Virus record (IMG/VR): IMGVR_UViG_3300013901_000006
Coordinates: 79,774 to 143,773 of that record
Source of the DNA: a virus
Lineage: Duplodnaviria > Heunggongvirae > Uroviricota > Caudoviricetes
Length of the DNA stretch: 64,000 nt
Strand: one strand, 5' to 3'
The notes below the pieces were generated by a model. That model was not told the origin of the DNA and made no database searches. It was given only the letters and a program-made list of their open reading frames with translations. Made by a program: the position numbers and the translations under genes. Shown here one piece after another: positions 24,153 to 50,012 of this stretch (position 1 is the first letter of the stretch; each line of letters opens with the position of its first letter).

Positions 24153-26234
24153 CTAGAGCTTAGTCCCTCGTCCACCCTTATTTGCTATTTTACCTGTAAA
24201 GTTTTGCGGCTCAGTTATTGTCATGGATACAATCTTATCATCATCGTCTAGCTTAATGCCGCACATGCCGCCAGACCTGATACTACTTGCTCGCACACTA
24301 TCTGCCTTAAAACTAATCTCTCTCTTGGAAGAGGTAAGTGTTACGATACACCCATTAGTCTCTTGGATAGATACTATATCCACATCAGTTTTAGCGGCAA
24401 CGATTCCACGCTTATTGCGCACACCTTTAGCAAATTGTTTTCCTTCACACTTTTTAACTTTGCCATCAGCCATAGCAAACATAAGATAAGGCTTACTATC
24501 GCGGAAATAGCTATCGTGCGCATAGATAATTTTTTCATCCTTATCTAAATTAATGATAGCGCCAATTGCTGTACCCTTATCCTTTGGGCCGCACTCTTTA
24601 ATATCCGCAGGTGAAATACGGTAAAACTTACCCTTATTTGAGAATAGAGCAATCATCCTATCTTCTGCAATGCTAAATGCAGCGAAACCGTTATTTTTGA
24701 ATTTAGAAGGAGAAACCTTTTGTAGATAACCAAGAGGATTAAAAACAATTACGAAGTTCCTAATTTCCTTTGAAGCAGAAGACTTGGCTTTCTTTGTCTT
24801 TGTAATCTCCTTTTGGACTACTTTAGTCCGACGAGGAGTACCGTATTTTTTATCCATATCTTTCAGCTTTTTTAAAAATACTTTATCAAGTTCTTTTTTA
24901 TCATTTAAAATTAAATCGCATTTTGCAATAATTTCGTTCTTTTCTGTTAGCTCTTTTTCAATTGATTGCGTATCCAGTTTAGTCAGCTTCATTAACGGCA
25001 TTGAAAGAATTGATTTGATTTGCTTATCTGTAAAGTTAAACTCATTTTTAAGCCCATTTGCCGCATTAGCTTTATTATTTGAACCGCGAATAATCTCAAT
25101 GATTATATCAATATTCGTTAAGGCAAATTTTAATCCCTCTAAGATTTCTTTTCTTTGAGCCGCGAGATTCTTATCATATTCAGCTTCGCGTTTAAGGCAC
25201 TCAAAACAATGAAACAAGTATTCATCAACTGTCTGCTGTAGATTTAATAAAACAGGAGTTTTACTGATAATGCCATTCTGATTGACATTATACTGTGACC
25301 TTAAAGGTGTTGACTGAAATAGCTGCTGCAATACTTTTTCTGCCGCATACCCTCGTTGACATTCTACAACTAAAGCAATGCCATTCTTATCACTCTTATT
25401 ATATACATCTTTAATGCCAATTAAATCTTCTGATTCGATTAGCTCTTTAATCTTTACAATTAAAGGTTCAATGTATACTTGATATGGCATTTCAGTAAAA
25501 GTAATTTCGTTGCCGTCAATAGTATATGTAGCTTCTACAATTACTTTACCTTTTCCAGTTTCATTGATTGAAGATAATTCATCCTTATTGACGATTGTAC
25601 AGCCAGTAGGAAAATCAGGGTAGTATTCCTCTGCTTCAAATTTACCAGTTTTAACGTACTTACCGATTAAGTTAATGGTTTCTTTAAGGTTGTGCGGCAA
25701 CCAATTATTTGCAATTGAAACACCGATACCTTGAGCGCCATTGACAAGAAGTCTAGGAAAATATGATGGTAATACTACTGGCATATATTCATCTTCGCTG
25801 AAATTCAAAACCATTGGAACTGTATTTTTTTCAATTCCATTTAACATGAATTCTTCTGTGATTTTAGAAAGACGCGCTTCTGTATATCGGTCCGCAGCAA
25901 TTGCGTCTCCGCCCAAAATTACGTTACCATTTGCACCATGGAAATCAACCTCTGGTACATTGTTTGTAAAAGGCTGAGACATGCGTGCGAAAGTTTCATA
26001 AATCGCTTGAGTGCCATGAGGCCAGTAGAGCGCCGCAACGCCTCCATCAATCTTTGCCGATTTAACGTGTGGTTTGTCGCTGGTATATTTTTTAGTGTAC
26101 ATTTCCCACAAAATACATCTTTGACCCGGTTTTAATCCATCTTTTACACTTGGAAAAGCCCTGTTACAGTTTACATCATATGAACTATCAATAAAATTTT
26201 GTTGAACAACTTTAACAAGATTTGATTTATTCAA
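24153..26234 (-). CDS. Type II DNA topoisomerase, A-type subunit (GyrA/ParC / T4 gp52-like)
   Basis: PSVKDGLKPGQRCILWEMY (DGLKP motif around the active-site Tyr region). 693 aa. Confidence 0.8.
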   Translation of the reverse strand: MNKSNLVKVVQQNFIDSSYDVNCNRAFPSVKDGLKPGQRCILWEMYTKKYTSDKPHVKSAKIDGGVAALYWPHGTQAIYETFARMSQPFTNNVPEVDFHGANGNVILGGDAIAADRYTEARLSKITEEFMLNGIEKNTVPMVLNFSEDEYMPVVLPSYFPRLLVNGAQGIGVSIANNWLPHNLKETINLIGKYVKTGKFEAEEYYPDFPTGCTIVNKDELSSINETGKGKVIVEATYTIDGNEITFTEMPYQVYIEPLIVKIKELIESEDLIGIKDVYNKSDKNGIALVVECQRGYAAEKVLQQLFQSTPLRSQYNVNQNGIISKTPVLLNLQQTVDEYLFHCFECLKREAEYDKNLAAQRKEILEGLKFALTNIDIIIEIIRGSNNKANAANGLKNEFNFTDKQIKSILSMPLMKLTKLDTQSIEKELTEKNEIIAKCDLILNDKKELDKVFLKKLKDMDKKYGTPRRTKVVQKEITKTKKAKSSASKEIRNFVIVFNPLGYLQKVSPSKFKNNGFAAFSIAEDRMIALFSNKGKFYRISPADIKECGPKDKGTAIGAIINLDKDEKIIYAHDSYFRDSKPYLMFAMADGKVKKCEGKQFAKGVRNKRGIVAAKTDVDIVSIQETNGCIVTLTSSKREISFKADSVRASSIRSGGMCGIKLDDDDKIVSMTITEPQNFTGKIANKGGRGTKL

Positions 26235-26631: not shown

Positions 26632-27934
26632 CAGTTATTCTTATATTTCTATAAGCCCTGACTATCTCTTATTGTATTTATATACAAGATATTATTTCAA
26701 ACTATGTATCAATAATAGTTTTACTCGCCCGATTCGGCGATAGTCGATACAACCTTATTTGTGAATCCATTTATGAGTTTTTTTAGAATAAATAGGTACA
26801 TTAGTATAAGTTTTTCCAGTTAGCATCTTTTGAAAAGATTCTCTAGAAATACGTTTATCTGTATTTTCATAGATGTCTTTATAATTTTTTGAAACATATT
26901 GCTTTCTAAATTTAAGCACTTCTTCATCAGAATAAGCATTTGTAGTATATCTATTAGAATTATCTTTTACTCTATTAGAGTTTTTTTCTGGTTGCTCTCC
27001 CGGAAAAATCCATTTATTTGTTTTTTTATGAAAATATGGCAAATGCTTATTTGTTCTTCCGCATAATATACCTTGAAATGCTTCATATGTAATAATGTCT
27101 TTATAATCTCCATAAAGCTCTTTTGCCTGCGCTCCTGCGGCATATTTCTTTCTCGCGACCATTATTTGTTCTTCTGTTAATTTAGAAGTAACTTTTACAC
27201 CAGCCATTTTTTTATAATAATTTTTGTTATCTTTAGTATATACTTCTGGCATTATTTCTGCCCAAGTTTTACCTTGCCACACAGCTTGAAAAGTACCAAA
27301 AGTAATCTTATCTTTTACTGATTCATACGCTTCTTTTTGTGTAATAAGTCTTTCATTGTAACACTTACGAATAAACATTACATCAGATACAGATAATTTA
27401 GCTCTTGGATTTTCTTCTCCACGAGAGCCGCAATCTCCACCTCTGTTGCAATTATATCCTTCTTCTACCGCATTAGTTTTATCAATCCAATATGCTTCTA
27501 ATTCATTTAGTTCTTCTACGGAACATTCTTGAAGAACAATCAAAGAGAAGTTTTCCTTCCCATATTTATGTATCGCCCAATCAACAGGAATGTTGCTTTG
27601 CTTATATCTGCTTGGAGAACAATGTTCAACAAATCGTCTATCTATATCATTACTTTGTCCAACATAAAACTTGCCATTTATGTTATTAACTATCTTATAA
27701 ATACCTATCATACTTTACACCTTTCTGTATCTTTGAAAGGCGTTAGATTCACAAAATTTGTCACGGGATTGCCATGTTATAAATATATAATTTAGGTTTC
27801 CCCGTTAGCGCCTATCAACTTGAACACCATCTATATCTAATATGAAAGCTATCATACCACGATTATAATATTTTGTCAAGAAAAATAAGCACCCTATTGA
27901 TTAATAGAAAAATATCACACAGCCAATTTTATTT
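26632..27934 (-). mobile_element. Probable group I intron carrying a GIY-YIG homing endonuclease, inserted in the TDA|DFDG motif of the topoisomerase large subunit
   Basis: Exon 1 ends IITATDA followed by K-stop. Exon 2 resumes in frame with DFDG. The last exon-1 nt is U and the last intron nt is G. Contains the free-standing GIY-YIG ORF 26755-27711. Confidence 0.55.
26755..27711 (-). CDS. GIY-YIG homing endonuclease (intron-encoded)
   Basis: MIGIYKIVNNINGKFYVGQSNDIDRRFVEH. Repeated C-terminal modules typical of HEG DNA-binding regions. Confidence 0.75.
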   Translation of the reverse strand: MIGIYKIVNNINGKFYVGQSNDIDRRFVEHCSPSRYKQSNIPVDWAIHKYGKENFSLIVLQECSVEELNELEAYWIDKTNAVEEGYNCNRGGDCGSRGEENPRAKLSVSDVMFIRKCYNERLITQKEAYESVKDKITFGTFQAVWQGKTWAEIMPEVYTKDNKNYYKKMAGVKVTSKLTEEQIMVARKKYAAGAQAKELYGDYKDIITYEAFQGILCGRTNKHLPYFHKKTNKWIFPGEQPEKNSNRVKDNSNRYTTNAYSDEEVLKFRKQYVSKNYKDIYENTDKRISRESFQKMLTGKTYTNVPIYSKKTHKWIHK

Positions 27935-29440
27935 AGCATCTGTAGCAGTAATAATTTTATCATATCTTAGTTTAGATTTATCATAAATGCATTTTGCATT
28001 TTTAGGATTGAACTCTAAGCCAAGAGCCTGAATTAAATTATTAATTTCTTGATTCTTTATAATGTTTTCTTGTTTTGTTTTTAATACAGAAAGCATTTTT
28101 CCTCTAACTCCATAAACAGCTTGGAACTTAGAATCTCTGCCCGCAACCATATTTGATGATGCGCTTTTGCCTTCTGTCAAATATAACTCGCAAATAGAAC
28201 GGTCTTTTGACCAACAATCGGATAAACTTGTTGGCATTTTTAGGAAATTATTACCACGCTTCTTTTTATTTTTAACCGCTGCGCGAGCTTTCTTCGCTGC
28301 TTCTGCCGCACGTTTAGCAACAATGGCTTTCTCAAGAATGGCTTTTGCATCTGTTGGATTATTATCTAACCACACTTCAAGCTGTTCACCAAAAGTAGAA
28401 GTAAAAGATGTATCTACATCAATAATATCATCTTTAACTTGCGCGTTATATTTAACGCCTTTACTATCGATATTACATACAAGAATTAATCCTTCTTGAA
28501 TTGCCGCACCATCTAGATTCTTTTCTTTGTCTTTAAGAAGATTATTTGCTCTAGCCCATGAATTAAATACGCGGGTTAACGTTGATTTAATCCCTGTAAT
28601 ATGCGGCCCAGACGATGTTAAACCATAATTTACATATGAGACAATCTTAGATTGACTACTGGATGTAAAAGTCATGGCAAGACGAATATTATTCTCATTC
28701 ATCACAAAATGATTTGAAATAATTTCGGTATCATTGCCACGTTTTTCATCTAGCATATCTTCGATACTATCATGTGTTATTTCAATACCATTTAAAACAA
28801 CTTTAAGAGTAGGACAAATACACGTAATATCATTAAAGAACTTTTTGAAATGTGCAATAGACGTTTTATCTGTACCAAAATACTGTCCATCTGGTAGGTA
28901 TTCTACATATGTACCAGAATGTCCTTCATCAATACCAGAATCATGTTTAATGATGATACCATCTTTGAATTCAATCTGTTCGTATTTACCATCACGAACC
29001 GTTCGTGCTTTAAGATACTTTGAAAGAAACGTTACAAGTTTTGCACCCAATCCGTTAAGTCCAAGACTAGACCCTTCATAGACCCCATCATCAGTATATT
29101 TACCAGATGTATTCATAGTATCAAAAGCAGCCTGAAACACAGTCTTACCATCATTACGTTTTTGGTTTACAAGAAAACCTTGCGCATAATCTTGGATTGA
29201 ACATACACCAGTTTTATCATCAATAGATACTTCAATTACGCTGCCATGACCGATATTATGTTCATCTAACGCATTGCTGAATAGTTCCAACATTAACTGA
29301 TTTGGAGTAGATGTGTCGCCGCAGTACATTGATGGACGTTTACGCACATGCTCACGTGGAGTTAGTGATTGAATTGAATCTTCCGTATAAGAATTGCTTT
29401 TTAAGTTACTTCTCAAATTACTCTCCTTTCTTTTATACAA
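27935..29440 (-). CDS. Type II topoisomerase large (GyrB-like / T4 gp39-like) subunit, exon 1 (ATPase + Toprim)
   Basis: SYTEDSIQSLTPREHVRKRPSMYCGDT (GyrB N-terminus). LMLELFSNALDE ATPase lid. Ends ...IITATDA. Confidence 0.8.
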
Positions 29441-29930: not shown

Positions 29931-30818
29931 TCAATAATTCGAGAGTGAGCCATTTGCAATTTCCCTTTCTGTATATTTTGTCATAATATTAACTAAAAAA
30001 TTATCTAAAAAGTCATTCGCGGCAATATTTTCTTTAGGTACACCAAAAGTAAAGCTAGGTTTCTCACTTTCAGCATCTTCAATAATAGCTTTCATGTTAT
30101 GCACATATTCATCACAACGTGCTTTTGCTTCTTCTGGTGTTAAGGAAATCCTATAACGCTTAATATCCATCATTTCATCTCGTACTTTATGAGAGTTAAC
30201 GCGAATAGCTTTACTGAAAGGAACGCCTGAGCAATATTTAAAAATGAAATTATATAATCGAATAATATGCTGCAACTCTTTTGCCACATATCCATGCTTT
30301 TCAATCAATTCATGGTTAGCAGGAGAATCATGGCAGATTTTAGATGCTTTTTCACGAGCCATTCCAAGAGAAGAAGCAAGAACCTTATGCGGGTTAAGGT
30401 TGGCAATTTCATCAACTTTAGAACAAAGAAGGTTCCATTCATTTTTATACACAGGGTTTACATAAACGTAATCTGTGCATAAGATTTCAAGGAAATTAAT
30501 ATTGGCCTTGCGGAAAATGCGAAAATAGTCACGAATATCTTTTAATGTACAATGCTCATTATTGGCTAAAACTTCAACTTTGTTAATAGATTTGCGGTCA
30601 ATGAACAAATCATCAAGTTCTGGGAATACAAGCATTTTTGTATCAACATCAGACGATTCATCAAAAAGACCATAATTCATAGAGCCATTTGCCGCACAGA
30701 CGAACATTTCCACTCCATCATATTTATGAGTCTCTTGGACTTCTTTTACATGAGCTTCAACACGTTTCTGAATGTCCCAATCATCTTTATACATATAATT
30801 CTCCTTTCTTTTAGACAA
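29931..30818 (-). CDS. Nucleotidyltransferase-fold protein (minimal NTase, GS-x10-DxD)
   Basis: CAANGSMNYGLFDESSDVD matches [GS]-x9-13-D-x-[DE] of pol-beta superfamily NTases. 295 aa. Immediately downstream of rsr. Confidence 0.5.
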   Translation of the reverse strand: MSKRKENYMYKDDWDIQKRVEAHVKEVQETHKYDGVEMFVCAANGSMNYGLFDESSDVDTKMLVFPELDDLFIDRKSINKVEVLANNEHCTLKDIRDYFRIFRKANINFLEILCTDYVYVNPVYKNEWNLLCSKVDEIANLNPHKVLASSLGMAREKASKICHDSPANHELIEKHGYVAKELQHIIRLYNFIFKYCSGVPFSKAIRVNSHKVRDEMMDIKRYRISLTPEEAKARCDEYVHNMKAIIEDAESEKPSFTFGVPKENIAANDFLDNFLVNIMTKYTEREIANGSLSNY

Positions 30819-30891
30819 TTATATAATATTATATATATTTTGTCAAATAAAAAAGGGAGTCCGAAGACTCCCCATCAAAAGAAAGAAGAAA

Positions 30892-32328
30892 TTAGATTGT
30901 ATACTTTTCCTCGATATAATCAACCAACTCTCCGCCATCTTCAACGTACTTAAGCATCTTAAATACATTGTCGTTGAGCGCGGTCATTAGATGCACATCA
31001 GGATTGTTCGAATTCACAATCTGAGTATGGTAATTTCCAAGGTCAAAGCTATAGAGAGTCGTGCGGCCATAGTTAGCGCAATACTCGTTATAAGAATACA
31101 TTGCCTTATCATATCCCACAGTAGGCCAAAAATATGAACGCTTATCCATTACCTGCATATCAGATACAACAAAAATGCGGTCATAATTCTTATTGCGAAT
31201 CATACCGAAAGCCGGAGCAATATCAGTACCATATCCGCAATGGTCATTATCACACATTTCACGAATAATCTGGAAAGGACCGGAAGCCTTAGCAAACGTC
31301 TTCGTCTTTGCATCGTTACCGAACTTCACAAAGTCACAGTTCCCATTGATATATAGGGCTGCTGCGTAGCAAGCCCCAACTTCCTTGATGGAAAGAGAAG
31401 ACTTGTCGCCATACATACCATCCATGGAGCCAGAAACGTCAAGCATGATAATAGAAGTTCCATCCAACTCAGGCATATTGCCGCAAGCAATACGGAAAGC
31501 GGTATCAAGAGCTGTAATCACTGCCATATTCTGAACACTGAGATTTCGATAGGCCGTATAAATCTGATAAGGGAACACAAGAGACTTGCGGATAGAGACT
31601 TCATTGATAATCTGGTCAACAAGATTCTTCTTGACCCAAACGTCATCAACGTCACTGTGTAGAATGTTGCTGAGATTGCGGATAAGGGCAAGATAACCAA
31701 GTTTATGTCCCTCTACAAGTTCCTTCCAACTAGTGGTACCAGTAGAAATACCAACTTCCCAAGTCTCAGGGGCAGCAAGAGTACCAGCCTTATACTTATC
31801 AATCGTCTCGCTATGAGCATGAGTAATATTGATAAGGTCATACATATTATACTGCTTACCGTTCATCTTATACTTAGCAATCTGATAATCACCAAGAGAA
31901 GAAAGATAATCAGCACAGCCACGAACCAGCGCATGAGAACGCCTGCCGCCAAGCATATCTACAGCTGCAAAAATCTCAGCTGGATCATCCGCGCGATGCA
32001 TGAAATTCTTATAGAACTCACGCTTCTGCTCAAACTTCTCAAAATTCAGGCGAGCTGCGACAAGCTGAGAAGCCGAACGCATACCAAGCTCATTACGCGC
32101 AAACTTAGCGCACTTGGCCGCAAACACAGGACCATAATGCTCAATGATAGCATCAGTCAGCTTGATAAAACGCTCCTGTTGCACATCTGCGGATTCATAG
32201 AAGGTATTACACATCTTAGACGAGAAAAGGAAATTCATCCACTCCTCGACAGGATTCTTTACATAATTAAGCCCACCCTCAAAAGAACGCTCACGAGAGG
32301 GCTTCACATTTTCATTAAACTTTGCCAT
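30892..32328 (-). CDS. rsr: Ro60/Rsr-like protein (TROVE domain + vWA with MIDAS motif)
   Basis: N-terminal SFEGGLNYV / CNTFYES resembles the Ro/Rsr GSDGGTYY region. MIDAS motif LDVSGSMDG at ~aa 300. 478 aa. Confidence 0.6.
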   Translation of the reverse strand: MAKFNENVKPSRERSFEGGLNYVKNPVEEWMNFLFSSKMCNTFYESADVQQERFIKLTDAIIEHYGPVFAAKCAKFARNELGMRSASQLVAARLNFEKFEQKREFYKNFMHRADDPAEIFAAVDMLGGRRSHALVRGCADYLSSLGDYQIAKYKMNGKQYNMYDLINITHAHSETIDKYKAGTLAAPETWEVGISTGTTSWKELVEGHKLGYLALIRNLSNILHSDVDDVWVKKNLVDQIINEVSIRKSLVFPYQIYTAYRNLSVQNMAVITALDTAFRIACGNMPELDGTSIIMLDVSGSMDGMYGDKSSLSIKEVGACYAAALYINGNCDFVKFGNDAKTKTFAKASGPFQIIREMCDNDHCGYGTDIAPAFGMIRNKNYDRIFVVSDMQVMDKRSYFWPTVGYDKAMYSYNEYCANYGRTTLYSFDLGNYHTQIVNSNNPDVHLMTALNDNVFKMLKYVEDGGELVDYIEEKYTI

Positions 32329-32494
32329 AACTACTTCTCTTTCTCTTGGAAGGAAATATACTTATAGGAATTAAATACTGGTATCTATGATTTGAACAAA
32401 AGCACATTTAAGAAGAAAGGATACCTTTATATTTAATTCCTATAGGCATGTTTCCACACCTAAAATAAAATAAAATGAGGAGATGTTAAAAACA

Positions 32495-32600
32495 GTACAC
32501 AAAAGATACCGACCTACCCGACGCAATGTCTGCGAAGGACGGAGTTGAACCGCCTTTCCGCATTTTCAAGGTGAAGTAACTGTTTTTCTATCACTCATTT
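32495..32600 (-). ncRNA. Y-RNA-like tRNA-like small RNA (copy R) with own promoter and terminator, adjacent to rsr
   Basis: 5' box AUGAGUGAUAGAAAAACAGUUACUUC shared with two other copies. T-arm GGCGG-UUCAACU-CCGUC. Terminal helix AAAAACAGU(U)AC / GU-ACUGUUUUU followed by a U-rich tract. Confidence 0.5.
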
Positions 32601-32605
32601 TGTAA

Positions 32606-32634
32606 TTATATTATACAATATAAATTTTTAAAAG
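32606..32634 (-). promoter_or_regulatory. TTGACT-17-TATAAT promoter positioned to start transcription at the 5' box of copy R
   Basis: Minus strand: TTGACT (32634-32629), 17-nt spacer, TATAAT (32611-32606). Predicted +1 at about 32598. Confidence 0.5.
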
Positions 32635-32883
32635 TCAATAAAAATTTTTAAAAGATTTTTATTTTTCTAATATCTTCATCGTCACCTGTATAATCATACC
32701 AAGTGACACACACTAAAAAGAATTCGTTTTCAGGAGATTCAGCCCATTCACAATAACTACGATATGCAATATAGGCTTCATCTAAATCATCCGTTTCTGT
32801 ACTATCTATAACAGTACCATCAGTAATGCAAGCCTGTACAATAAAATCGTAAGGCTCTTCCATTAGAGCAAGAAAATCACCCA

Positions 32884-33678
32884 TTATCCAAATACCTCGT
32901 CATCATTAAATCCTGAATAGTCGATAATTTTAATGCGGCCATCTTTATCATATCCAAAATTTCCATCATGAAAATCAGAGATATTATATTTATTGATAAA
33001 ATCAATAAGCCGTTTTGCCGCATTGATACCATAGTCTGCAATAAAACTAGATAGTTCAACCGAATGCAGTTCACTATATGTGTTATATTTTTTATTGCTC
33101 TTGGCTACAATCTGATTGGCAATATCATTATATTTTTTAATATTATGCTTAGACTTATTATAAGAATATTTACTCTCAACGCGATTAGACACATAAATTG
33201 GAATAAAGCCAACAGTACATAGAAATTGAGTTTTTGCAAACATAGAACTTATTTTATTTTTCTTTGCGATACGATAAAAATATTCTTCTGCTTCGCAATA
33301 ATTTGATTCATCGATAGGAAGTTCACACTTACCATTTGCATGATGATATAAAACAATTTCATCAGTATTAAAATACTCAGGAACGCAATTAGATTCTGCG
33401 GCATCTTTAAAAGAATCTACATCACATTCATTGATGCTGTAATAGCCTTGAAATGGAATTTTGAAAACATAATTAGGATATTCTTCAAAAAATAAAACTA
33501 ATTTTGATACTCCGTTGATAACTTTATCCGCACCAGTCATACGTTTAAAAGTATCATTATAATCGGAAAAATCCTGCTCATTATAATCTCCAAAATATAC
33601 TGTCATAATAGACATTAAATCATCAGACATAGTATTAAAACGAGAATTAATAAAATTACACAATTCTTTTTTATCCAT
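32884..33678 (-). CDS. Protein-kinase-like fold protein (atypical kinase)
   Basis: C-terminal FHDGNFGYDKDGRIKIIDYSGF resembles the catalytic loop HxDxxxxN plus the DFG-like IDYSG of ePK/APH-type kinases. Confidence 0.35.
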   Translation of the reverse strand: MDKKELCNFINSRFNTMSDDLMSIMTVYFGDYNEQDFSDYNDTFKRMTGADKVINGVSKLVLFFEEYPNYVFKIPFQGYYSINECDVDSFKDAAESNCVPEYFNTDEIVLYHHANGKCELPIDESNYCEAEEYFYRIAKKNKISSMFAKTQFLCTVGFIPIYVSNRVESKYSYNKSKHNIKKYNDIANQIVAKSNKKYNTYSELHSVELSSFIADYGINAAKRLIDFINKYNISDFHDGNFGYDKDGRIKIIDYSGFNDDEVFG

Positions 33679-35194: not shown

Positions 35195-36133
35195 TTAGTT
35201 GTTACTATTGGTCAGAATATATTCACGAATAGCCGCTTGCGCCAAACCTTTAATCTTTGCAAGATTAACACTGGTAACCTTCTTCTTACGATAAAAGTCC
35301 CAGAAATTCTCTTCCATAAGCTCGTTCAAAACTTTTTGCATACACATACCGAAGAATTTACCATTGCGGCAATCAATTTCATCCATATCGAGAGCGATAA
35401 GAACTTTATTAACTTCCTTTTCGACAAAAGCAGGCGTACAAAACTTATCTACAAACTCTTTTTCAGTATCATTTTGGTTGACATTGGTCTTCTTAGTGGT
35501 TTTATTATGATGCCATTCATCGCGTACAATTTTAGCAACTTGTGGATTTCCCCACGGGTCACGAAGAACTGGATAAGTTTTAATAACAATACCTTCACCA
35601 ATAATACCAGAAGGAAGATTAAAAGTACAAGAATCTACATACTTATCAACATCATCCCAAGTCATATTATCAATGCGGGCAATGATAGGAACGCAACGAT
35701 GATAAATTTTACTTACTACTGGATACCATACATCATAATCAATATATTCACCGCTGTCAGTATCAAAAACATCAAAGATAAAGAAACCACCTTCAATATA
35801 CTGTTTAATGCTACCGACAAACTTGCGGCCATCCACTCCGCCAAGCCATTCACCATAAATAATATAGCTAGGATTGTCAAGCAACCAATCCTTTAAAGCA
35901 TTGATTTCAGTGTCATTAGAATTTGTAATATAGTATGCAAATCCAGCATTATCCTTCTCAATAGAAATCTCACGGGTACGAGAGCCACACGCAATTTTGC
36001 CCTCATCATCTACCCAAATGCTGGAATTGCTTCCGTCCATTTTCGGCTGAATTAAAACCGACTTACCAATGAAACCCTGAACTTCATTGCGAGTAGAGCG
36101 TTCAAGATGAATGTACTTGTTGAAATGTGACAT
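35195..36133 (-). CDS. RNA ligase, Rnl2-like nucleotidyltransferase
   Basis: Motif I KMDGSN (Rnl2 K-x-[DH]-G-x-N). Motif IV EGIVIK, then a VAKIVRD motif-V-like segment. Confidence 0.5.
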   Translation of the reverse strand: MSHFNKYIHLERSTRNEVQGFIGKSVLIQPKMDGSNSSIWVDDEGKIACGSRTREISIEKDNAGFAYYITNSNDTEINALKDWLLDNPSYIIYGEWLGGVDGRKFVGSIKQYIEGGFFIFDVFDTDSGEYIDYDVWYPVVSKIYHRCVPIIARIDNMTWDDVDKYVDSCTFNLPSGIIGEGIVIKTYPVLRDPWGNPQVAKIVRDEWHHNKTTKKTNVNQNDTEKEFVDKFCTPAFVEKEVNKVLIALDMDEIDCRNGKFFGMCMQKVLNELMEENFWDFYRKKKVTSVNLAKIKGLAQAAIREYILTNSNN

Positions 36134-37083: not shown

Positions 37084-37605
37084 ATGAAGCACACGTTAAT
37101 TATGATGGCAGGCCCTGCGAGTTCAGGAAAATCTGTATTTGCAAAAATCATTAAAGATTCACATGATGATTGCGTTGTAGTTTCATATAAACAGATGGCA
37201 AAAGCAGCACTGGTCGCAAAAGAACCGCAACATTATGTAGATAAGCGATATATCGAAGTATTAAATAATATGCTTGAAACACATGAATATGTAATTGCTG
37301 ATAATTACAATATCAATGCAAATGAACGCAAAAAAATATTTGACAATATAAATATTGATAAATATAATATTATTTGTGTTTGGGTGGAAACGCCTCTTAA
37401 TGTTGCATTGAAGCGAAATGCACAACTAGATGAAAAGTGGCGAAGGTCGGAAGACTCTATAAAGCAAATGTATAAAATTAAAGTATCGCCGCAAGAACAA
37501 GAGCCTTTTAAAAAAGTAATTTTCATTTCAGAGCAAATGAATTATGCTATTGGAACAGATACAATGGAAATTCAAAATATTTTAGATACTCTTAAGGCTC
37601 TATAG
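37084..37605 (+). CDS. Polynucleotide-kinase-like P-loop kinase (T4 Pnk kinase-domain family), copy 1
   Basis: MMAGPASSGKSVFA Walker A. IADNYNINANERKKIF and VWVETPLNVALKRNAQ align to T4 Pnk ISDTNLNPERRLAW / VFDVPWTELVKRNSKRG. Confidence 0.5.
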   Translation: MKHTLIMMAGPASSGKSVFAKIIKDSHDDCVVVSYKQMAKAALVAKEPQHYVDKRYIEVLNNMLETHEYVIADNYNINANERKKIFDNINIDKYNIICVWVETPLNVALKRNAQLDEKWRRSEDSIKQMYKIKVSPQEQEPFKKVIFISEQMNYAIGTDTMEIQNILDTLKAL

Positions 37606-37657: not shown

Positions 37658-38578
37658 ATGTTAAAATTTATTTGTATTTTAATTGCGGCAATGTTTATTG
37701 TTAATTTTCTTTGTAGTTTTACTAAAGAATATCGAGAAAGTAATAATGTTGGCATTAATCGAGCCATTTCAGTTGTAATTGCAGTAATTCTAATTGGTAT
37801 TTCATGTGTATATACACAAGACGTAGGCGAAGTTGTTGTACTTCGCTCTATTGGTGGTAGTCTCTCTGGTTACACAAGTGAAGCTGGTTTCCATTTTACT
37901 GCACCATGGAATGATACAATTTCGTTCGATACCCGTAACAATTTAATTAACTTTCATGGTTCAAAAACAGACTACTCTTATGATGGAGGTTCTGCGGAAG
38001 GCCCATATGTAACTGTAAACGATAAGTCTGGCTCCAAGGCGAATGTAGATATACAAGTCAATTACAGTCTAGACTCAAAGACTGCTGAGTATCTATATAC
38101 TGAATACGGAACGCAAGAGAACTTTACTAAGAACTATGCTTCCAATGACCTTCGCTCTGTAGCGCGTGAGGTGTCTGGTCAGTTTGACACAATCACTATG
38201 TTAACTGACCGCTCTCAATATACGAAAGCAGTCCAAAAAGCTCTAGAAAAGAAGTGGAAGAAAATTGGCCTAACTGTTGAGCAAGTCAGTGTGCAAGACA
38301 TTTCTTATGCTAAATCTATTACAGATGCCTATGCTGATTCTCAGGCAGCAGAAGTAGAAAAGGCTAAGGCTCAGAATCAACAAGAAACTGCCAAGATTAA
38401 GGGAGACACTAAAGTAATTGAAGCTACAAAGGAAGCAGAAGCTAATAAAGTCCTTAATGATTCATTAACTGATAATGTTCTTTCTCAGCAATATATTGAA
38501 GCTCTAAAAGAAATGTCTAAGAATGGCAATACTGTAGTAGTCCCACAAGGTTCAACTCCAGTAGTATCAACTAAATAA
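37658..38578 (+). CDS. SPFH (band-7/HflC-K-like) domain membrane protein
   Basis: N-terminal TM helices. VVVLRSIGGSLSGYTSEAGFHFTAPWNDTISFDTRNN matches the SPFH core. Coiled-coil C-terminus. Confidence 0.5.
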   Translation: MLKFICILIAAMFIVNFLCSFTKEYRESNNVGINRAISVVIAVILIGISCVYTQDVGEVVVLRSIGGSLSGYTSEAGFHFTAPWNDTISFDTRNNLINFHGSKTDYSYDGGSAEGPYVTVNDKSGSKANVDIQVNYSLDSKTAEYLYTEYGTQENFTKNYASNDLRSVAREVSGQFDTITMLTDRSQYTKAVQKALEKKWKKIGLTVEQVSVQDISYAKSITDAYADSQAAEVEKAKAQNQQETAKIKGDTKVIEATKEAEANKVLNDSLTDNVLSQQYIEALKEMSKNGNTVVVPQGSTPVVSTK

Positions 38579-39538: not shown

Positions 39539-40108
39539 ATGATTACTCAATATTCTCATGGTATCAATACAGAAGCAAATCCAAGCAACAATGTAATTGA
39601 TATTTATAAAAAGTGGAGCGCGGAAGAAGTGCGGGCTAGCCTTCAACCAAATCGTACTCCACTTGTAAATATTTGTCTCAATCTTGACCATGGATTCAAC
39701 GTTGGTTCTATTATTCGAGCATCAAATTGTTTCCTTGCCAAGGAGACTTACGTGGTTGGCCGCAAACGCTTTGACGCTCGTGGAGGTGTTGGATCCAAAA
39801 AATACGAACGCGTATATCATGCAGATACATTAGATGAAGTCCTTGAAGTTCTGCACCCTCTTGGATATACCATTTTTGCCGTAGATAATGTAGAAGAATA
39901 TAATCCGCAGAATATTTTTGATGTTGATATTCCAATGAAGTCTGCTTTCGTATATGGAAGTGAGGGTAATGGTTTGCCAAAAGATGCTATTGACAAATGC
40001 GATGAAATGGTATATATTAGGCAATATGGAAGTATTCGCTCACTAAATGTGGCACAAGCTGCCGCATGTTGTATGATGGAATATTCTAGACGTTATCAAA
40101 TGAGGTAG
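39539..40108 (+). CDS. SpoU/TrmH-family RNA 2'-O-methyltransferase (SPOUT)
   Basis: NICLNLDHGFNVGSIIRASNCF, YGSEGNGLPKDAI, and IRQYGSIRSLNVAQAAACCMMEY match SPOUT motifs I-III. Confidence 0.65.
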   Translation: MITQYSHGINTEANPSNNVIDIYKKWSAEEVRASLQPNRTPLVNICLNLDHGFNVGSIIRASNCFLAKETYVVGRKRFDARGGVGSKKYERVYHADTLDEVLEVLHPLGYTIFAVDNVEEYNPQNIFDVDIPMKSAFVYGSEGNGLPKDAIDKCDEMVYIRQYGSIRSLNVAQAAACCMMEYSRRYQMR

Positions 40109-40377: not shown

Positions 40378-40821
40378 ATGGCTGAGTTGACTAAGAGCGA
40401 CTATAGATACTTTGAAATGGCACATAGGGAAGCTGAAAAATCTACCTATGATACCTTTCATCTTGGATGCGTTCTAGTCTATAAAGGTCACATTATCGGT
40501 CGCGGAAGCAATTCCTCTAAAACTTCACCTATTCAGGCCAAATATAATCAGTTCAGGCAGTTCCGATATGGGCCGCAATTAGTAGCACATAAAAACCATG
40601 CTGAAATCAGCGCTATTAAGAGTGTACCTTATCAGGTAGATAAAGAGACTGATTGGTCAAAGGTTTCATGTTACATTTATCGTATCTCTAAGGGTCGAAA
40701 AAAGAATGTGGGTTTAGCTCGACCTTGTGAGGGATGTTTTCAGGCACTTATCGATAAAGGTATTCGTAACATCTACTATACTACAAATAATGGCTATGCG
40801 TATGAGGAAATTCTTGTATAA
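40378..40821 (+). CDS. CDA-fold deaminase (dCMP/cytidine/tRNA-adenosine deaminase family)
   Basis: HAE...PCEGC zinc-binding signature (HxE, PCxxC). Confidence 0.6.
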   Translation: MAELTKSDYRYFEMAHREAEKSTYDTFHLGCVLVYKGHIIGRGSNSSKTSPIQAKYNQFRQFRYGPQLVAHKNHAEISAIKSVPYQVDKETDWSKVSCYIYRISKGRKKNVGLARPCEGCFQALIDKGIRNIYYTTNNGYAYEEILV

Positions 40822-46170: not shown

Positions 46171-46240
46171 GCCAGTTTAGTATAACAGTAATACATCGCT
46201 CTTGTAAAGCGAAGCAGACAGGGCAGCACTGTCAACTGGC
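46171..46240 (+). tRNA. tRNA-Thr (anticodon TGT)-like gene with non-canonical D- and T-loops
   Basis: Perfect acceptor GCCAGTT/AACTGGC + TCCA. D stem GTAT/ATAC. Anticodon stem TCGCT/AGCGA with loop CTTGTAA. T stem GACAG/CTGTC, but the T loop is GGCAGCA and the D loop lacks GG. Confidence 0.45.
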
Positions 46241-46481
46241 TCCAATATTTTAGTATTCTATGAGGATAATATAAAAGGAGATTCGACCACTCCAAGCAAT
46301 GCACTTGTATTATTCTCATAGAGTGCTAACCTTAGACACTCTCCAAGTGATAGTAGAGCGGAATTTGACCCCGTCTGTGCTATCCCAAGTTATAAGCGAT
46401 TCGGGCAGTCGCTATACAAATTTGCCCACTTTAGATTATTAGATAGGCTACATAGGGAGTAGCTACCTCATGGAAAAGTGA

Positions 46482-46537
46482 ATATCCACCACCTGCCTAT
46501 CTATTGTATTTAGTGGATAGGAAAGTGTGGATATATG
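46482..46537 (+). promoter_or_regulatory. Stable hairpin sequestering the RBS and start codon of the HNH endonuclease gene
   Basis: ATATCCAC...CCTATC-loop-GATAGG-AAAGT-GTGGATAT. The 3' arm ends at the ATG (46535). SD-like AGGAAAG lies inside the 3' arm. Confidence 0.5.
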
Positions 46538-47260
46538 CTTAAATGTATTATTTGTGAAAAAGATTTTGTTATTAGACCAAATGGTAAAATGGGCGGGGCA
46601 AATCGTCAAATTTGTTATAATTGCTTGCCTGAAGATATTAGTTCAAAACAAGAAAGACGAAAAGCTACGAATTTTCTTATTAGTCAAAAGCTTCAAAAAG
46701 AAAAAACAAGTCGTGGCTGCGATATTTGTGGTTACAATAGTTGCGGAGCAGCATTAGAGTGGCATCATTATAATAGCGATAAAGATTTTAATCCAAGTGC
46801 TATTCCAGTATGCAATTGGGAAACATTGAAGAAATATCGTAAAGAAACTCAAAAATGTCAATTATTATGTGCAAATTGCCATAGAGAAATACATTATAAA
46901 AAATATTGGGGAAATTTTATTATGCCAATTGATAGTGGCCAAAGTGAAAATTTCAGAAAAGAAGTTTGTGATTATTACAAAGAAAACCTAAACATAAATA
47001 AAACTAGCGTTTATTTCCATAAAAATCGCGAAACAATTAAAAATATTCTGCTGTATTGTGGAGTTAAGATAACTAAAGAAGACAATCATAAATCTGTCAG
47101 TATGATAAATATTAAAACAAATGAAATTATTAAAACATTTTACAGTTTAAATGAAGCTAGTGATTTTTTAAATAAAGGTAAAGGTGGCATTACCCATATA
47201 TCTGATGCTTGTTCCGGGAAAAGAAAGACTGCTTACGGGTACAAATGGCGTTATGAATAA
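46535..47260 (+). CDS. HNH homing endonuclease
   Basis: Zn-ribbon CIICEK...CYNC. HNH core EWHHYNSDKDFN...CANCHREIHYKKY. Confidence 0.7.
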   Translation: MLKCIICEKDFVIRPNGKMGGANRQICYNCLPEDISSKQERRKATNFLISQKLQKEKTSRGCDICGYNSCGAALEWHHYNSDKDFNPSAIPVCNWETLKKYRKETQKCQLLCANCHREIHYKKYWGNFIMPIDSGQSENFRKEVCDYYKENLNINKTSVYFHKNRETIKNILLYCGVKITKEDNHKSVSMINIKTNEIIKTFYSLNEASDFLNKGKGGITHISDACSGKRKTAYGYKWRYE

Positions 47261-47500: not shown

Positions 47501-47857
47501 AAAATTTTTCTTGACTTCTAGTTGAGAATAATGTACAATATATTTAGAAGAAAAGGGGGGAAAAGGATAGTCAACAGTACCATCAACAAACCAGTGACCC
47601 TGCGGCGAATATTAATGAGCCAATACCCATAAGATGTAATATCGAGTACGCTGTTAGGTTGATTAAATTTTTCTTCCAAATAAGTTTAAACGCCAAGAGA
47701 AAGAGGTAAAATGGCACAGTCTATCGAGTCTATGGAGCAGCGTTATCAGATGCTTATTAACCGAAAGGGTAAGAATTCAGAAAATGTAGGCATTATGCGC
47801 AAACTTCGCCGCAAGATTAACAAGGCTAAGTCAGGTATCATTCTTTCTTAATTTTAT

Positions 47858-47980
47858 ATGCGTGATAGGGATTCAGTTACTTCATATCAATAGCAGAGAT
47901 ATAGGCTGTCGGTTCGAATCCGACCATCTACGGATGTAGCTCAACAGGTAGAGCGATGTCATTTTATAGTCTGAATCCAA
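47858..47980 (+). ncRNA. Y-RNA-like tRNA-like RNA, copy A (closing helix + T-arm + acceptor-like hairpin + D-arm)
   Basis: 5' box AUGCGUGAUAGGGAUUCAGUUACUUC. GGAUUCAG (47869-76) pairs with CUGAAUCC (47971-78). Enclosed: GUCGG-UUCGAAU-CCGAC, CUACGGAUGUAG, and GCUC-AACAGGUA-GAGC. Confidence 0.5.
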
Positions 47981-48204
47981 GATTTCCGCATATTTTTTCT
48001 TGACTTTTGGTTATATATATTATATAATATATTTAGTTCAAAGGAGATAACATGAAATACTGCATTTGCCGTGAAAAAACTACGCATTGCCTGTCTATTC
48101 GAGTTGATACTGACTGCTCGCCTGTACGCTTTGATGTACTTTCCATTCATGACACTTTCGAAGAGGCAGATGCGGCACTTCGTTTTTATCTTGATTAATC
48201 TATT

Positions 48205-48290: not shown

Positions 48291-48291
48291 T

Positions 48292-48364: not shown

Positions 48365-48379
48365 CCTATTTTATTTCGC

Positions 48380-48452: not shown

Positions 48453-48465
48453 CAAAATAAAATAT

Positions 48466-48494: not shown

Positions 48495-48499
48495 ATAAA

Positions 48500-49525: not shown

Positions 49526-49541
49526 CCAATTGTATTTTATA

Positions 49542-49616
49542 ATGCGTGACAGAAAATCAGTTACTTCTATTTTAAAAATAAGATATTGGTTCGATTCCAA
49601 TTACCGCATAAAAACT
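49542..49616 (+). ncRNA. Y-RNA-like tRNA-like RNA, copy B (minimal: closing helix + hairpin + T-arm)
   Basis: 5' box AUGCGUGACAGAAAAUCAGUUACUUC. GAAAAUCAGUU (49552-62) pairs with AACUGAUUUU (49605-14). T-arm AUUGG-UUCGAUU-CCAAU. Confidence 0.45.
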
Positions 49617-49659
49617 GATTTTAGTATTTCCGCGTTTAATTTTTATTCTGGTATGTGAT

Positions 49660-49930
49660 TGAGTTTTAGTTACTTCGAAGATATATATTATGTTTTAAAT
49701 TAATTAAAATTTAAATTAAAAGAACCGGCTTTTACGTCAGACTATAACGGCGTAACAAAAAACTGGTAACTTATACTAAAACTAGTATTTCCATACCTTC
49801 CTCTTTCTCTTGGATAAGTGATTGAACCGCATAGTTACTTCATATTTTTGGTATAATATAATTCAGTCTATGTGATATTATTTCCTTATCTTAAACATTT
49901 TGCGTGATTGGTTCAAGAGATACTTCATAA
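49660..49930 (+). repeat. Three decayed partial copies of the GUGAU...AGUUACUUC 5' box
   Basis: GTGATTGAGTTTTAGTTACTTC (~49657), GTGATTGAACCGCATAGTTACTTCATAT (~49822), TGCGTGATTGGTTCAAGAGATACTTCAT (~49893). None has a following T-arm. Confidence 0.4.
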
Positions 49931-49984
49931 ATATTTTATGACATTTTTTTTTTGCTCTCTCTTGGGCATACTTTCCGCTTTAAT

Positions 49985-50012
49985 AGGGCCTTATGGCCCT
50001 ATTTTTTTTTAT
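49985..50012 (+). terminator. Intrinsic terminator (AGGGCC-ttat-GGCCCT + T9) fused to a TTGACT promoter
   Basis: Hairpin plus T-run directly followed by TTGACT-N17-TATAAT. Confidence 0.6.

What the first reader, a model, noticed from the sequence alone, without database searches (positions are those of the whole stretch)
30892..32640. Phage-encoded Ro60/Rsr-like protein with an adjacent, independently transcribed tRNA-like Y-RNA candidate
The ORF at 30892-32328 has a TROVE-like N-terminus and a vWA domain with a DVSGSM MIDAS motif. That is the Ro60/Rsr architecture. Directly upstream on the same strand sits a ~105-nt element with its own consensus promoter, with predicted +1 exactly at its conserved 5' box. 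It has a T-arm mimic (GGCGG-UUCAACU-CCGUC), a terminal helix with a bulged U (CAGU-U-AC / GU-ACUG), and a U-rich 3' end. In bacteria, Y RNAs are encoded next to rsr. Some of them (YrlA) are tRNA mimics. A virulent phage carrying its own Ro60 plus Y RNA points to a phage-directed RNA surveillance or decoy system.
Basis: partly seen in the sequence, partly recalled or inferred. Interest (0 to 1): 0.9.

Follow-up and report, generated by a model that had tools for sequence, protein, structure and literature searches.

The report
Phage Ro60 gene with Y RNA partner
An uncultivated ~140-kb phage encodes a Ro60 (TROVE plus vWA) RNA-binding ring and, in the leader of the same transcription unit, a Y RNA of the tRNA-mimicking YrlA lineage; the call is correct, but phage Ro60/Y RNA pairs have been known since 2003-2014 and were studied biochemically in 2025, so this is a new member of a known system.

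Summary
ORF 30892-32328(-) is a Ro60 homolog. It hits Pfam TROVE and PHROG 850 over its full length. Its best solved relative is the Ro60 of Thermus phage phiLo, and the 13 best fold matches of the predicted structure are all Ro60 structures. The MIDAS residues are invariant among homologs.

The upstream element is real but longer than reported: 32468-32604(-). I built a covariance model from 12 related RNAs, leaving this element out. 26 of its 33 base pairs show compensatory changes. The model scores the element at 64 bits (E 6e-15). The same model finds the RNA beside the Ro gene of mycobacteriophage ET08, a phage named in the 2014 YrlA paper, and of Bacillus phage G.

The element has the closing stems, the 5' GUGAUAG box, the YUAY box, the T arm and the acceptor-like hairpin. 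It lacks the D stem and does not hit Rfam YrlA. I therefore call it a D-armless YrlA derivative.

Its promoter is also the only recognisable promoter for rsr, so co-transcription is more likely than independent transcription.

The window holds five more Y-like RNAs in the tRNA cluster (47852-49985, + strand), and RNA-repair genes lie nearby. Novelty: new member of a known kind. Interest is moderate to low.

The parts
32610..32638 (-). Sigma-70-type promoter TTGACT-17-TATAAT. Predicted +1 is near 32603. It drives the Y RNA and probably rsr.
   Evidence: 11 of 12 matches. The sequence is almost identical in the ortholog L060.
32468..32604 (-). Y RNA of the YrlA lineage, D-armless variant. This is the finding's element with corrected ends.
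   Evidence: Model R1 was built without this element and scores it at 64.3 bits, E 6e-15, over the full model length. The ortholog in L060 scores 57.8 bits. No ORF of 40 aa or more overlaps it.
32594..32601 (-). P1 5' strand, AAAAUGAG. It pairs with 32472-32479 (CUCAUUUU).
   Evidence: Nine of the 11 pairs of this helix (P1 plus its GUGA/UCC extension) show compensatory changes.
32588..32594 (-). Conserved 5' box GUGAUAG (family consensus GUGAYDG) with bulged U32593. It occupies the position of the GNCGAA Ro60-recognition motif of published YrlA RNAs.
   Evidence: Role inferred from PMC4201824.
32579..32587 (-). P2 5' strand, AAAAACAGU. It pairs with 32488-32496 (ACUGUUUUU).
   Evidence: 6 of 7 pairs compensatory in the family. 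One pair is A-U in the window and G-C in L060.
32573..32580 (-). Invariant GUUACUUC box. It contains the YUAY motif (UUAC) that begins the V region in YrlA RNAs.
   Evidence: Invariant in alignment A2. YUAY is described in PMC4201824.
32538..32554 (-). T arm: GGCGG, loop UUCAACU, CCGUC.
   Evidence: The first pair is G-C here and C-G in L060. Four of 5 pairs are compensatory in the family.
32513..32537 (-). Acceptor-stem-like hairpin (CGCA-GACAU-UGCG, closed by CCU/AGG).
   Evidence: The equivalent helix shows 6 of 6 compensatory pairs in the family.
32505..32514 (-). Remnant of the D loop (GGUCGGUAUC). The D stem is absent.
   Evidence: Gaps in the cmsearch alignment at the D stem, in the window and in L060. 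The segment is identical in both.
32472..32484 (-). 3' box AUCUCC (family consensus AUUUCC) plus the P1 3' strand, followed by the U-rich tail UUUUAUUUUAUUUU.
32329..32467 (-). rsr 5' leader with a long hairpin and the conserved UUCCUUCCAAGAGAAAG ribosome-binding region.
   Evidence: Folding z = -3.77. The base of the stem and the ribosome-binding region are conserved in L060 and in the 70% clade. It is not a Y module: R1 gives no hit.
30892..32328 (-). rsr: Ro60 homolog, a TROVE HEAT-repeat ring plus a vWA domain with the MIDAS motif DVSGSM...T368...D390.
30854..30873 (-). Intrinsic terminator that ends the Y RNA-rsr unit.
29931..30818 (-). RlaP-family nucleotidyltransferase with its own 12/12 promoter at 30846-30818. 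A likely ATG start lies near 30794.
   Evidence: Pfam PF10127, 23.7 bits against a cut-off of 23. phrog_388, E 2e-12. It sits directly downstream of rsr in the closer relatives.
35195..36133 (-). RNA ligase (PF09414), upstream on the same strand. This position is conserved across the phage family.
47852..47998 (+). Canonical YrlA-type Y RNA with P1, P2, V, T, AS and D arms, at the edge of the tRNA cluster.
   Evidence: R1 gives 106.5 bits, but this RNA is a member of the seed alignment. Independent support: Rfam YrlA RF02553 at 31.8 bits, E 2e-4, below the gathering score.
49536..49642 (+). Y-like RNA with Ro-type stems and a T arm only.
   Evidence: R1 53.7 bits, E 4e-12.
49645..49803 (+). 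Y-like RNA with Ro-type stems and no tRNA-like arms.
   Evidence: R1 31.1 bits, E 4e-6.
49808..49896 (+). Y-like RNA with Ro-type stems only.
   Evidence: R1 28.2 bits, E 2e-5.
49897..49985 (+). Y-like RNA with Ro-type stems only (weak match). A terminator follows at 49982-50003.
   Evidence: R1 16.3 bits, E 0.03. The motifs are visible in the sequence. Terminator.

Best explanation
The locus is a phage Ro60-Y RNA module.

Shown:
- The 478-aa protein is a Ro60-fold TROVE+vWA protein.
- The RNA at 32468-32604(-) belongs to a covarying RNA family that sits upstream of Ro60 genes on the same strand in many phages, and that a model built here also detects beside the Ro genes of phages named in the YrlA literature.

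Inferred:
- A strong sigma-70-type promoter starts transcription at the foot of the RNA's terminal helix. The transcript continues through a structured leader into rsr and ends at the terminator at 30873-30854.
- The roughly 130-nt Y RNA is released by partial termination at its U-rich tail or by processing, and is stabilised by Ro60.
- Ro60 binds the closed end of the RNA: P1 with a bulged U in the GUGAUAG box, an internal loop, then P2. This is by analogy to Xenopus Ro60-Y RNA and to phiLo phiRo60-Yrl2.
- The distal head (V region, T arm, acceptor-like hairpin, no D stem) is the effector end. It would gate the Ro60 cavity or tether the ring to a partner such as host PNPase or a tRNA-handling enzyme.
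- The conserved neighbours are an RNA ligase, an RlaP nucleotidyltransferase, an RNA-kinase-like P-loop protein, a SpoU methyltransferase and tRNA genes. Given these, the most likely role is handling of damaged or misfolded structured RNA (tRNA, rRNA) during infection, as part of a phage RNA-repair and counter-defence gene set.
- The five other Y-like RNAs in the tRNA cluster probably share the same Ro60.
For: Protein:
- TROVE 48 bits; PHROG 850 over the full length.
- phiLo Ro60 at E 3e-23, with the MIDAS motif aligned.
- MIDAS residues invariant among 17 homologs.
- Predicted structure pLDDT 81. Its top 13 PDB matches are all Ro60 structures, TM 0.64-0.73.

RNA family:
- 33 pairs, 26 with compensatory changes. 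90.7% of cells are paired, against 38-47% when the partners are slid. No shuffle out of 500 reached the observed values.

The element itself:
- Excluded from the model, yet it scores 64.3 bits over the full length.
- Its ortholog at 78% Ro60 identity scores 57.8 bits, has the same promoter, and shows two compensatory pair changes.

Link to YrlA:
- The model gives 60 bits at the single site upstream of the ET08 Ro gene. It gives 95 bits in Bacillus phage G, 86 and 70 in BRock, and 60 in Gordonia phage Rabbitrun.
- Rfam YrlA hits those same sites below its gathering score.

Association with Ro60:
- A scan for the RNA motif alone in viral contigs returned 80 loci. Fifty of them hold a Ro60 homolog, nearly always on the same strand and mostly 150-600 nt downstream.
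- All 45 full-length model hits (of 49 in total; four partial hits in the tRNA-rich loci L048 and L050 look like tRNA pairs) in the family loci lie upstream of rsr on its strand.

Transcription unit.

Gene context.

Literature on mechanism: PMC4201824, PMC12135203, PMC7824862, PMC12776372.
Against: - There are no expression data, so a discrete RNA species is not shown.
- The D stem is missing, so the tRNA-like elbow may not form.
- The 5' box is GUGAUAG rather than the published GNCGAA motif.
- Rfam YrlA and Y_RNA give no hit, even at E<=10.
- The 70%-identity clade has rsr but no Y RNA within 10 kb on either side. An adjacent Y RNA is therefore dispensable in close relatives, or is supplied from elsewhere.
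- The RlaP call is borderline in Pfam (23.7 against 23).
- The partner of the RNP and its function in infection are inferred only from other systems and from gene neighbourhood.
Confidence: 0.82

Rival explanations
1. The element is only a cis-acting part of the rsr mRNA leader, for example an autoregulatory Ro60-binding site. It would never accumulate as a separate trans-acting Y RNA.
For: One promoter serves both the RNA and rsr, and no terminator-like site lies between them. In relatives the Y modules abut the rsr ribosome-binding site, and some loci carry a minimal GUG-UGAU-UUUUCC-CAC stub just before it.
Against: The same architecture occurs at 47852-49985, away from rsr and on the other strand, where it cannot be an rsr leader. 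Bacterial and phiLo Y RNAs that are encoded with rsr are separate RNA species (PMC4201824, PMC12135203). The element ends in a U-rich tail after its closing stem. The two readings are not mutually exclusive.
Confidence: 0.15
2. The rsr-adjacent element is a decaying, non-functional copy. The working Y RNAs would be those in the tRNA cluster, in particular the canonical one at 47852-47998.
For: The D stem is lost. There is no Rfam YrlA hit. The sister clade has lost the adjacent RNA altogether.
Against: The Ro-side motifs and both closing stems are intact. The promoter matches 11 of 12 positions. The D-armless form is kept in a lineage whose Ro60 has diverged to 78% identity, with compensatory changes in the T stem and in P2.
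Confidence: 0.08
3. The element is a chance T-arm-like hairpin or a tRNA gene remnant unrelated to Ro60.
For: tRNA detectors and Rfam give no hit.
Against: The independent model gives E 6e-15 over its full length, including the non-tRNA stems and boxes. The RNA motif is strongly linked to Ro60 genes.
Confidence: 0.01

Closest known systems
Thermus phage phiLo phiRo60 with Yrl1/Yrl2 (PMC12135203; PDB 9KOP, 9L5Y)
   Same: It is a phage-encoded Ro60 with Y-like RNAs directly upstream of the gene. It is the best solved sequence and fold match to this protein. The MIDAS motif DVSGSM is identical in the alignment.
   Different: Sequence identity is only about 20-25%. The phiLo RNAs were defined by a CGAA motif in a stem-bulge-stem, and 'tRNA' appears only twice in the text of that paper. 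Here the box is GUGAUAG and the RNA has a T arm. Binding to host PNPase was shown for phiLo and is untested here.
YrlA RNAs of bacteria and mycobacteriophages (Chen et al. 2014, PMC4201824; Rfam RF02553)
   Same: It lies within 4 kb of Ro60 on the same strand, with paired 5' and 3' ends, a YUAY box, a V region, a T arm and an acceptor-like hairpin. My model, built on this phage family, finds the ET08, Bacillus phage G, BRock and Gordonia RNAs at 60-95 bits.
   Different: There is no D stem. The 5' motif is not GNCGAA. There is no RF02553 hit. The window's second copy at 47852-47998 does have the complete set of arms and a sub-threshold RF02553 hit.
Deinococcus radiodurans Rsr-Yrn1-PNPase (RYPER) and the Salmonella rsr-yrlBA-rtcBA RNA-repair operon
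   Same: A Ro60 ring is paired with a Y RNA that has a T arm. Yrn1 also lacks a full D arm (PMC4201824). The RNA is co-encoded with RNA-repair enzymes.
   Different: The ligase here is PF09414, not RtcB. The setting is a phage. The NCBIfam Rsr equivalog model scores only 17.7 bits against a cut-off of 900, so this protein is not an Rsr equivalog.
RNA-repair gene sets of large phages (Iyer et al. 2021, PMC7824862)
   Same: RNA ligase, RlaP nucleotidyltransferase, a kinase and a TROVE protein occur together with tRNA genes.
   Different: That survey covered jumbo phages. This is a family of about 140 kb from metagenomes, and the Y RNA repertoire was not described there.

Membership tests
Ro60/Rsr (TROVE + vWA ring proteins) | TROVE / HEAT-repeat ring domain | tested here: met
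   Pfam PF05731 at 48 bits against a cut-off of 23. PHROG 850 over the full length. The predicted structure matches 13 Ro60 structures at TM 0.64-0.73.
Ro60/Rsr (TROVE + vWA ring proteins) | C-terminal vWA domain with the MIDAS motif (DxSxS...T...D) | tested here: met
   D297-V-S299-G-S301, T368 and D390 are invariant in 17 homologs. The motif aligns to that of phiRo60. vWA folds follow the Ro60 hits in the fold search. Pfam itself gives no vWA hit.
Ro60/Rsr (TROVE + vWA ring proteins) | Equivalog of bacterial Rsr (NCBIfam NF041674) | tested here: not met
   17.7 bits against a cut-off of 900. The protein is a divergent phage branch of Ro60, not an Rsr equivalog.
Ro60/Rsr (TROVE + vWA ring proteins) | Binds a Y RNA | not testable with these tools
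   Supported only by genomic linkage.
YrlA (Chen et al. 2014; Rfam RF02553) | Encoded within 4 kb of Ro60 on the same strand | tested here: met
   The RNA ends 140 nt upstream of the rsr start codon, on the same strand.
YrlA (Chen et al. 2014; Rfam RF02553) | 5' GNCGAAN0-1G motif | tested here: not met
   The sequence is GAGUGAUAGAA. The family consensus is GUGAYDG. Some relatives have GUGACGAAG or GAGUCGAAG at the same place.
YrlA (Chen et al. 2014; Rfam RF02553) | YUAY at the start of the V region | tested here: met
   UUAC lies within the invariant GUUACUUC box, 32580-32573.
YrlA (Chen et al. 2014; Rfam RF02553) | T stem-loop with a tRNA-type T loop | tested here: met
   GGCGG-UUCAACU-CCGUC. 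Compensatory change in L060.
YrlA (Chen et al. 2014; Rfam RF02553) | Stem-loop (AS) after the T arm | tested here: met
   The hairpin CGCA-GACAU-UGCG with the outer pairs CCU/AGG is conserved in L060.
YrlA (Chen et al. 2014; Rfam RF02553) | D stem-loop | tested here: not met
   The D stem columns are deleted in the window and in L060. Only a GGUCGGUA remnant is left.
YrlA (Chen et al. 2014; Rfam RF02553) | Reaches the Rfam RF02553 gathering score (69 bits) | tested here: not met
   No hit at E<=10. The test has little power for phage RNAs: the ET08 locus scores 37.4, Bacillus phage G 36.2, and the window's canonical copy 31.8.
Y RNA in the broad sense (Ro60-bound RNA with paired ends and a bulged helix) | 5' and 3' ends form a bulged stem with conserved boxes, supported by covariation | tested here: met
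   P1 with bulged U, and P2. In the family, 9 of 11 pairs of the P1 helix and 6 of 7 pairs of P2 are compensatory. The element fits both stems.

The most novel reading that the evidence does not exclude
This phage lineage would use one Ro60 ring with a six-member, modular set of Y RNAs. One is a D-armless tRNA mimic made from the rsr leader. One is a canonical YrlA. Four are tandem stem-only or T-arm-only modules made from a tRNA operon. Each would tether Ro60 to a different partner. The whole would act as the RNA-handling hub of a counter-defence island (RNA ligase, RlaP, RNA kinase, SpoU, tRNAs) against host tRNA-cleaving immunity. In addition, the pyrimidine-rich linker between two modules (49801-49814) would pair with the recurrent CCAAGAGAAAGAG ribosome-binding region of rsr and of three further sites on the + strand, at least one of which lies just upstream of a start codon, to tune their translation.
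Probability: 0.15. Interest if true: 0.6.

Novelty: new member of a known kind. Interest (0 to 1): 0.35.

Why it matters
- It extends the Ro60/Y RNA system to a large, uncultivated family of ~140-kb phages. Dozens of contigs carry it, many of them from one very large metagenome dataset.
- It shows that the curated Rfam YrlA model misses phage Y RNAs. Even the locus of ET08, a phage named in the 2014 paper, scores about half the gathering score.
- It provides a working covariance model and a simple DNA signature (GTTACTTC followed within 12-40 nt by a T arm). In 50 of 80 motif-matched viral loci a Ro60 homolog lay in the held DNA.
- It documents natural variation that bears on an open question, namely what the tRNA-like head of bacterial Y RNAs does. 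In one family the head is complete, D-armless, T-arm-only or absent. In one clade the adjacent RNA is gone altogether.
- It does not change the concept. Phage Ro60 with Y RNA partners, and TROVE proteins within phage RNA-repair gene sets, are already in the literature.

Tried and rejected
- blastn of the element against 52 related loci found only the near-identical contig. Conservation lies in structure and short boxes, not in sequence.
- Rfam at the gathering score and at E<=10 gave no hit on the element. ARAGORN found no tRNA there.
- Megablast of the locus and of 20 kb of the window against GenBank phages found no relative. A GyrA-like protein search did not identify a host.
- The supplementary alignments of Chen et al. 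2014 are not held. I therefore used the ET08 locus itself as the link to the published family.
- I considered that 32329-32467 is a second, degenerate Y module. I rejected this: R1 gives no hit, only the base of the hairpin and the ribosome-binding region are conserved in L060, and the region folds as a single long hairpin.
- I looked for Y RNAs near rsr in the 70%-identity clade, at 2.5 kb and then at 10 kb on either side. None was found. Whether these phages carry Y RNAs elsewhere remains open.
- I tried to fetch tRNA-cluster homologs through the 149-aa ORF. Only the near-identical contig came back. blastn of the window against the motif-scan loci found nothing.
- The conserved upstream ORF of 264 aa (32884-33678) remains uncharacterised: no Pfam, NCBIfam or PDB sequence match, and only a weak phrog_4301 hit.
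- The hit at 48320-48420 is a false positive. It combines the T arm of tRNA-Lys with the D arm of tRNA-Asn, the artefact that Chen et al. warned about.
Full report
**1. The observation**

The ORF at 30892-32328 on the minus strand encodes 478 aa.
- It hits Pfam TROVE at 48 bits against a cut-off of 23, over residues 176-262 only.
- PHROG 850 ('RNA-binding protein') matches over the full length, E 7.5e-32.
- The only solved relatives found by sequence are the two entries for Ro60 of Thermus phage phiLo (9KOP, 9L5Y). E is 3e-23 over residues 13-395, and DVSGSM aligns to DVSGSM.
- Pfam reports no vWA domain. The MIDAS residues D297, S299, S301, T368 and D390 are nevertheless invariant among 17 homologs of 54-78% identity.
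- An AlphaFold model has pLDDT 81 and pTM 0.76. Its 13 best PDB matches are all Ro60 structures: phiLo, human, Xenopus and Deinococcus, with TM 0.64-0.73. Isolated vWA domains follow.

The protein call is therefore correct. The NCBIfam Rsr equivalog model scores only 17.7 bits against 900, so this is a divergent phage branch of Ro60.

The promoter TTGACT-17-TATAAT lies at 32638-32610(-) and matches 11 of 12 positions. The T-arm-like hairpin is present.

**2. What the RNA is**

Database models gave nothing for this element. Rfam had no hit at its gathering scores or at E<=10, and ARAGORN found no tRNA. blastn against relatives found only a near-identical contig.

Reading the regions upstream of 52 related Ro60 genes from viral contigs showed a recurring layout:
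- an outer helix;
- a GUGAYDG box;
- an inner helix;
- an invariant GUUACUUC box;
- then often a T arm, a hairpin and a D arm;
- then the return strands and an AUUUCC box.

I aligned 12 such RNAs and left out the finding's element.
- RNAalifold predicted 33 pairs in five helices, 26 of them with compensatory changes.
- 90.7% of cells are paired, against 38-47% when the 3' partners are slid by 1-3 columns. None of 500 shuffles reached the observed values.

The covariance model R1 built from this alignment scores the finding's element at 64.3 bits, E 6e-15, over the whole model, at 32468-32604(-). With these ends the single sequence also folds into the expected shape, z = -2.56.

The element has:
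- P1 (AAAAUGAG/CUCAUUUU);
- the box GUGAUAG with a bulged U;
- P2 (AAAAACAGU/ACUGUUUUU);
- GUUACUUC;
- the T arm;
- a short acceptor-like hairpin.

The D stem is deleted. Only a GGUCGGUA remnant is left.

The ortholog in a contig whose Ro60 is 78% identical (L060) has the same promoter and the same D-armless layout (57.8 bits). It also shows two double changes that keep pairs. The first T-stem pair is G-C in the window and C-G in L060. One P2 pair is A-U in the window and G-C in L060.

**3. Link to known Y RNAs**

Chen et al. 2014 (PMC4201824) defined YrlA RNAs by these features:
- a 5' GNCGAA motif;
- a YUAY box;
- V, T, AS and D stem-loops;
- a position within 4 kb of Ro60 on the same strand.

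They reported YrlA RNAs in 254 bacteria and 22 phages and named mycobacteriophage ET08.

R1 gives one strong hit in the ET08 Ro locus: 60.1 bits, just upstream of gp220. It also gives 95 bits in Bacillus phage G, 86 and 70 bits in Streptomyces phage BRock, and 60 bits in Gordonia phage Rabbitrun. All four lie upstream of the Ro gene and on its strand.

Rfam does hold a YrlA family, RF02553. It hits exactly these sites, but at 31-40 bits against a gathering score of 69. It does not hit the D-armless pair (window and L060).

Of the 80 loci held, 50 carry a Ro60 homolog, nearly always on the same strand and mostly 150-600 nt downstream.

The family is thus the YrlA lineage. The finding's element is a derivative of it that fails three of the listed features:
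- the D stem;
- the exact 5' motif;
- the Rfam score.

**4. Transcription**

The only strong promoter upstream of rsr is the one in front of the RNA. No terminator-like site lies between the RNA and rsr. A clean terminator follows rsr at 30873-30854, and the next gene has its own 12/12 promoter.

In relatives the Y modules run up to the rsr ribosome-binding site. In the 70%-identity clade a consensus promoter sits directly in front of the conserved rsr leader, with no Y RNA.

I therefore read the RNA as made from the rsr leader rather than from an independent unit. The U-rich tail after P1 may give partial termination. This is inference.

**5. More Y RNAs and context**

R1 finds five further Y-like RNAs on the + strand in the tRNA cluster.
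- 47852-47998 is a complete YrlA, but it was part of the seed alignment. Its independent support is the RF02553 hit.
- 49536-49642 has a T arm only.
- 49645-49803, 49808-49896 and 49897-49985 have the Ro-type stems and boxes only.
- The last four are tandem. They lie downstream of tRNA-Leu and end at a terminator.

Relatives carry two to four tandem modules upstream of rsr.

The gene neighbourhood includes:
- an RlaP-type nucleotidyltransferase directly downstream of rsr;
- an RNA ligase upstream on the same strand;
- a P-loop kinase with weak similarity to tRNA and polynucleotide kinases;
- a SpoU methyltransferase, a deaminase and at least seven tRNA genes.

The order RNA ligase - 264-aa ORF - (Y RNAs) - Ro60 is kept down to about 40% Ro60 identity. 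RlaP follows rsr in the closer clades.

This matches the phage RNA-repair gene sets described by Iyer et al. 2021 and the RNA-repair role shown for RlaP.

**6. Mechanism**

Other systems establish the following:
- Ro60 binds the bulged terminal stem of Y RNAs.
- The Y RNA gates the ring's cavity or tethers the ring to PNPase.
- phiLo Ro60 binds its two upstream Y-like RNAs and forms complexes with host PNPase in vitro.

I infer the same for this locus. The phage probably uses the RNP to handle damaged or misfolded structured RNA alongside its ligase, kinase and nucleotidyltransferase. None of this was testable here.

**7. Novelty and score**

Phage Ro60 genes have been known since 2003, phage YrlA RNAs since 2014, and the structure and biochemistry of a phage Ro60-Y RNP since 2025.

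The new points are modest:
- an uncultivated phage family;
- a D-armless variant;
- Y RNAs placed in the tRNA cluster, 15-18 kb from rsr and on the other strand;
- a sister clade without an adjacent Y RNA;
- the weakness of the Rfam model for phage members.

I rate it a new member of a known kind, with interest 0.35.

Noticed in passing
window 47852-47998, 49536-49642, 49645-49803, 49808-49896, 49897-49985 (+): There are five more Y-like RNAs in the tRNA cluster, 15-18 kb from rsr and on the opposite strand. One is a complete YrlA. The other four are tandem, lie downstream of tRNA-Leu and end at a terminator. They fall outside the 'within 4 kb, same strand' rule used to define YrlA.
   Followed up: partly
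window 49801-49814 (+ strand RNA), 32337-32350 (-), 38642, 47692 and 56488 (+): The 14-mer TCCAAGAGAAAGAG from the rsr ribosome-binding region recurs five times at one mismatch or fewer (expected 0.05). One copy is antisense, inside the linker between two Y modules, so that RNA is perfectly complementary to the rsr ribosome-binding region. Its meaning is unknown.
   Followed up: partly
window 32329-32467 (-): The rsr leader has a long hairpin (z = -3.77). The base of the stem and the UUCCUUCCAAGAGAAAG tail are conserved in relatives, while the top of the hairpin is variable.
   Followed up: partly
loci L003-L021 and L183-L222 (70%-identity clade): These relatives keep RNA ligase, the 264-aa ORF, Ro60 and RlaP in order, but have no Y-like RNA within 10 kb on either side of rsr. 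A consensus promoter sits directly in front of the rsr leader.
   Followed up: partly
window 32884-33678 (-): A 264-aa ORF of unknown function lies directly upstream of the Y RNA/Ro60 unit in nearly all relatives (25-54% identity). By my reading only, its C-terminal DFHDGNFG...IIDYSGF resembles a kinase catalytic loop. Pfam, NCBIfam and PDB gave no match.
   Followed up: partly
window 29931-30818 (-), 35195-36133 (-), 37084-37605 (+), 39539-40108 (+), 40378-40821 (+), 37658-38578 (+): RNA-repair and RNA-modification neighbours: an RlaP nucleotidyltransferase, an RNA ligase (PF09414), an AAA_33 kinase with weak PSTK/Pnkp similarity, a SpoU methyltransferase and a cytidine/dCMP-type deaminase. 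A Band-7/SPFH protein also lies here.
   Followed up: partly
loci L059, L056, L055, L054, L024, L034; window 47884-47972: Rfam YrlA (RF02553, gathering score 69 bits) scores every phage YrlA tested at 31-40 bits, including the Ro locus of mycobacteriophage ET08. Routine annotation will therefore miss phage Y RNAs.
   Followed up: yes
loci L054-L057 (Gordonia phage Rabbitrun, Streptomyces phage BRock, Bacillus phage G, crAss-like cr111_1): In unrelated phages the Ro-like gene also lies inside or beside a tRNA gene cluster. Bacillus phage G also has a tmRNA there.
   Followed up: no
window 750-1078 (-): A group I intron matches Rfam RF00028 at 56.3 bits, above its gathering score of 50.
   Followed up: no
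window 48466-48683 (+): A perfect 12/12 promoter (48466-48494) is followed by a GC-richer leader of about 170 nt before a small ORF. Its folding z of -1.8 is not significant, and Rfam gives no hit.
   Followed up: partly
window 46171-46241 (+) and 46535-47260 (+): Rfam calls a tRNA at 44.9 bits that ARAGORN does not report. Next to it is a 241-aa ORF with a NUMOD1 domain, of the homing-endonuclease type.
   Followed up: no
window 24153-26234 and 27929-29440 (-): The phage encodes type II topoisomerase subunits of the GyrA/ParC and GyrB type just downstream of the Ro60 module.
   Followed up: no
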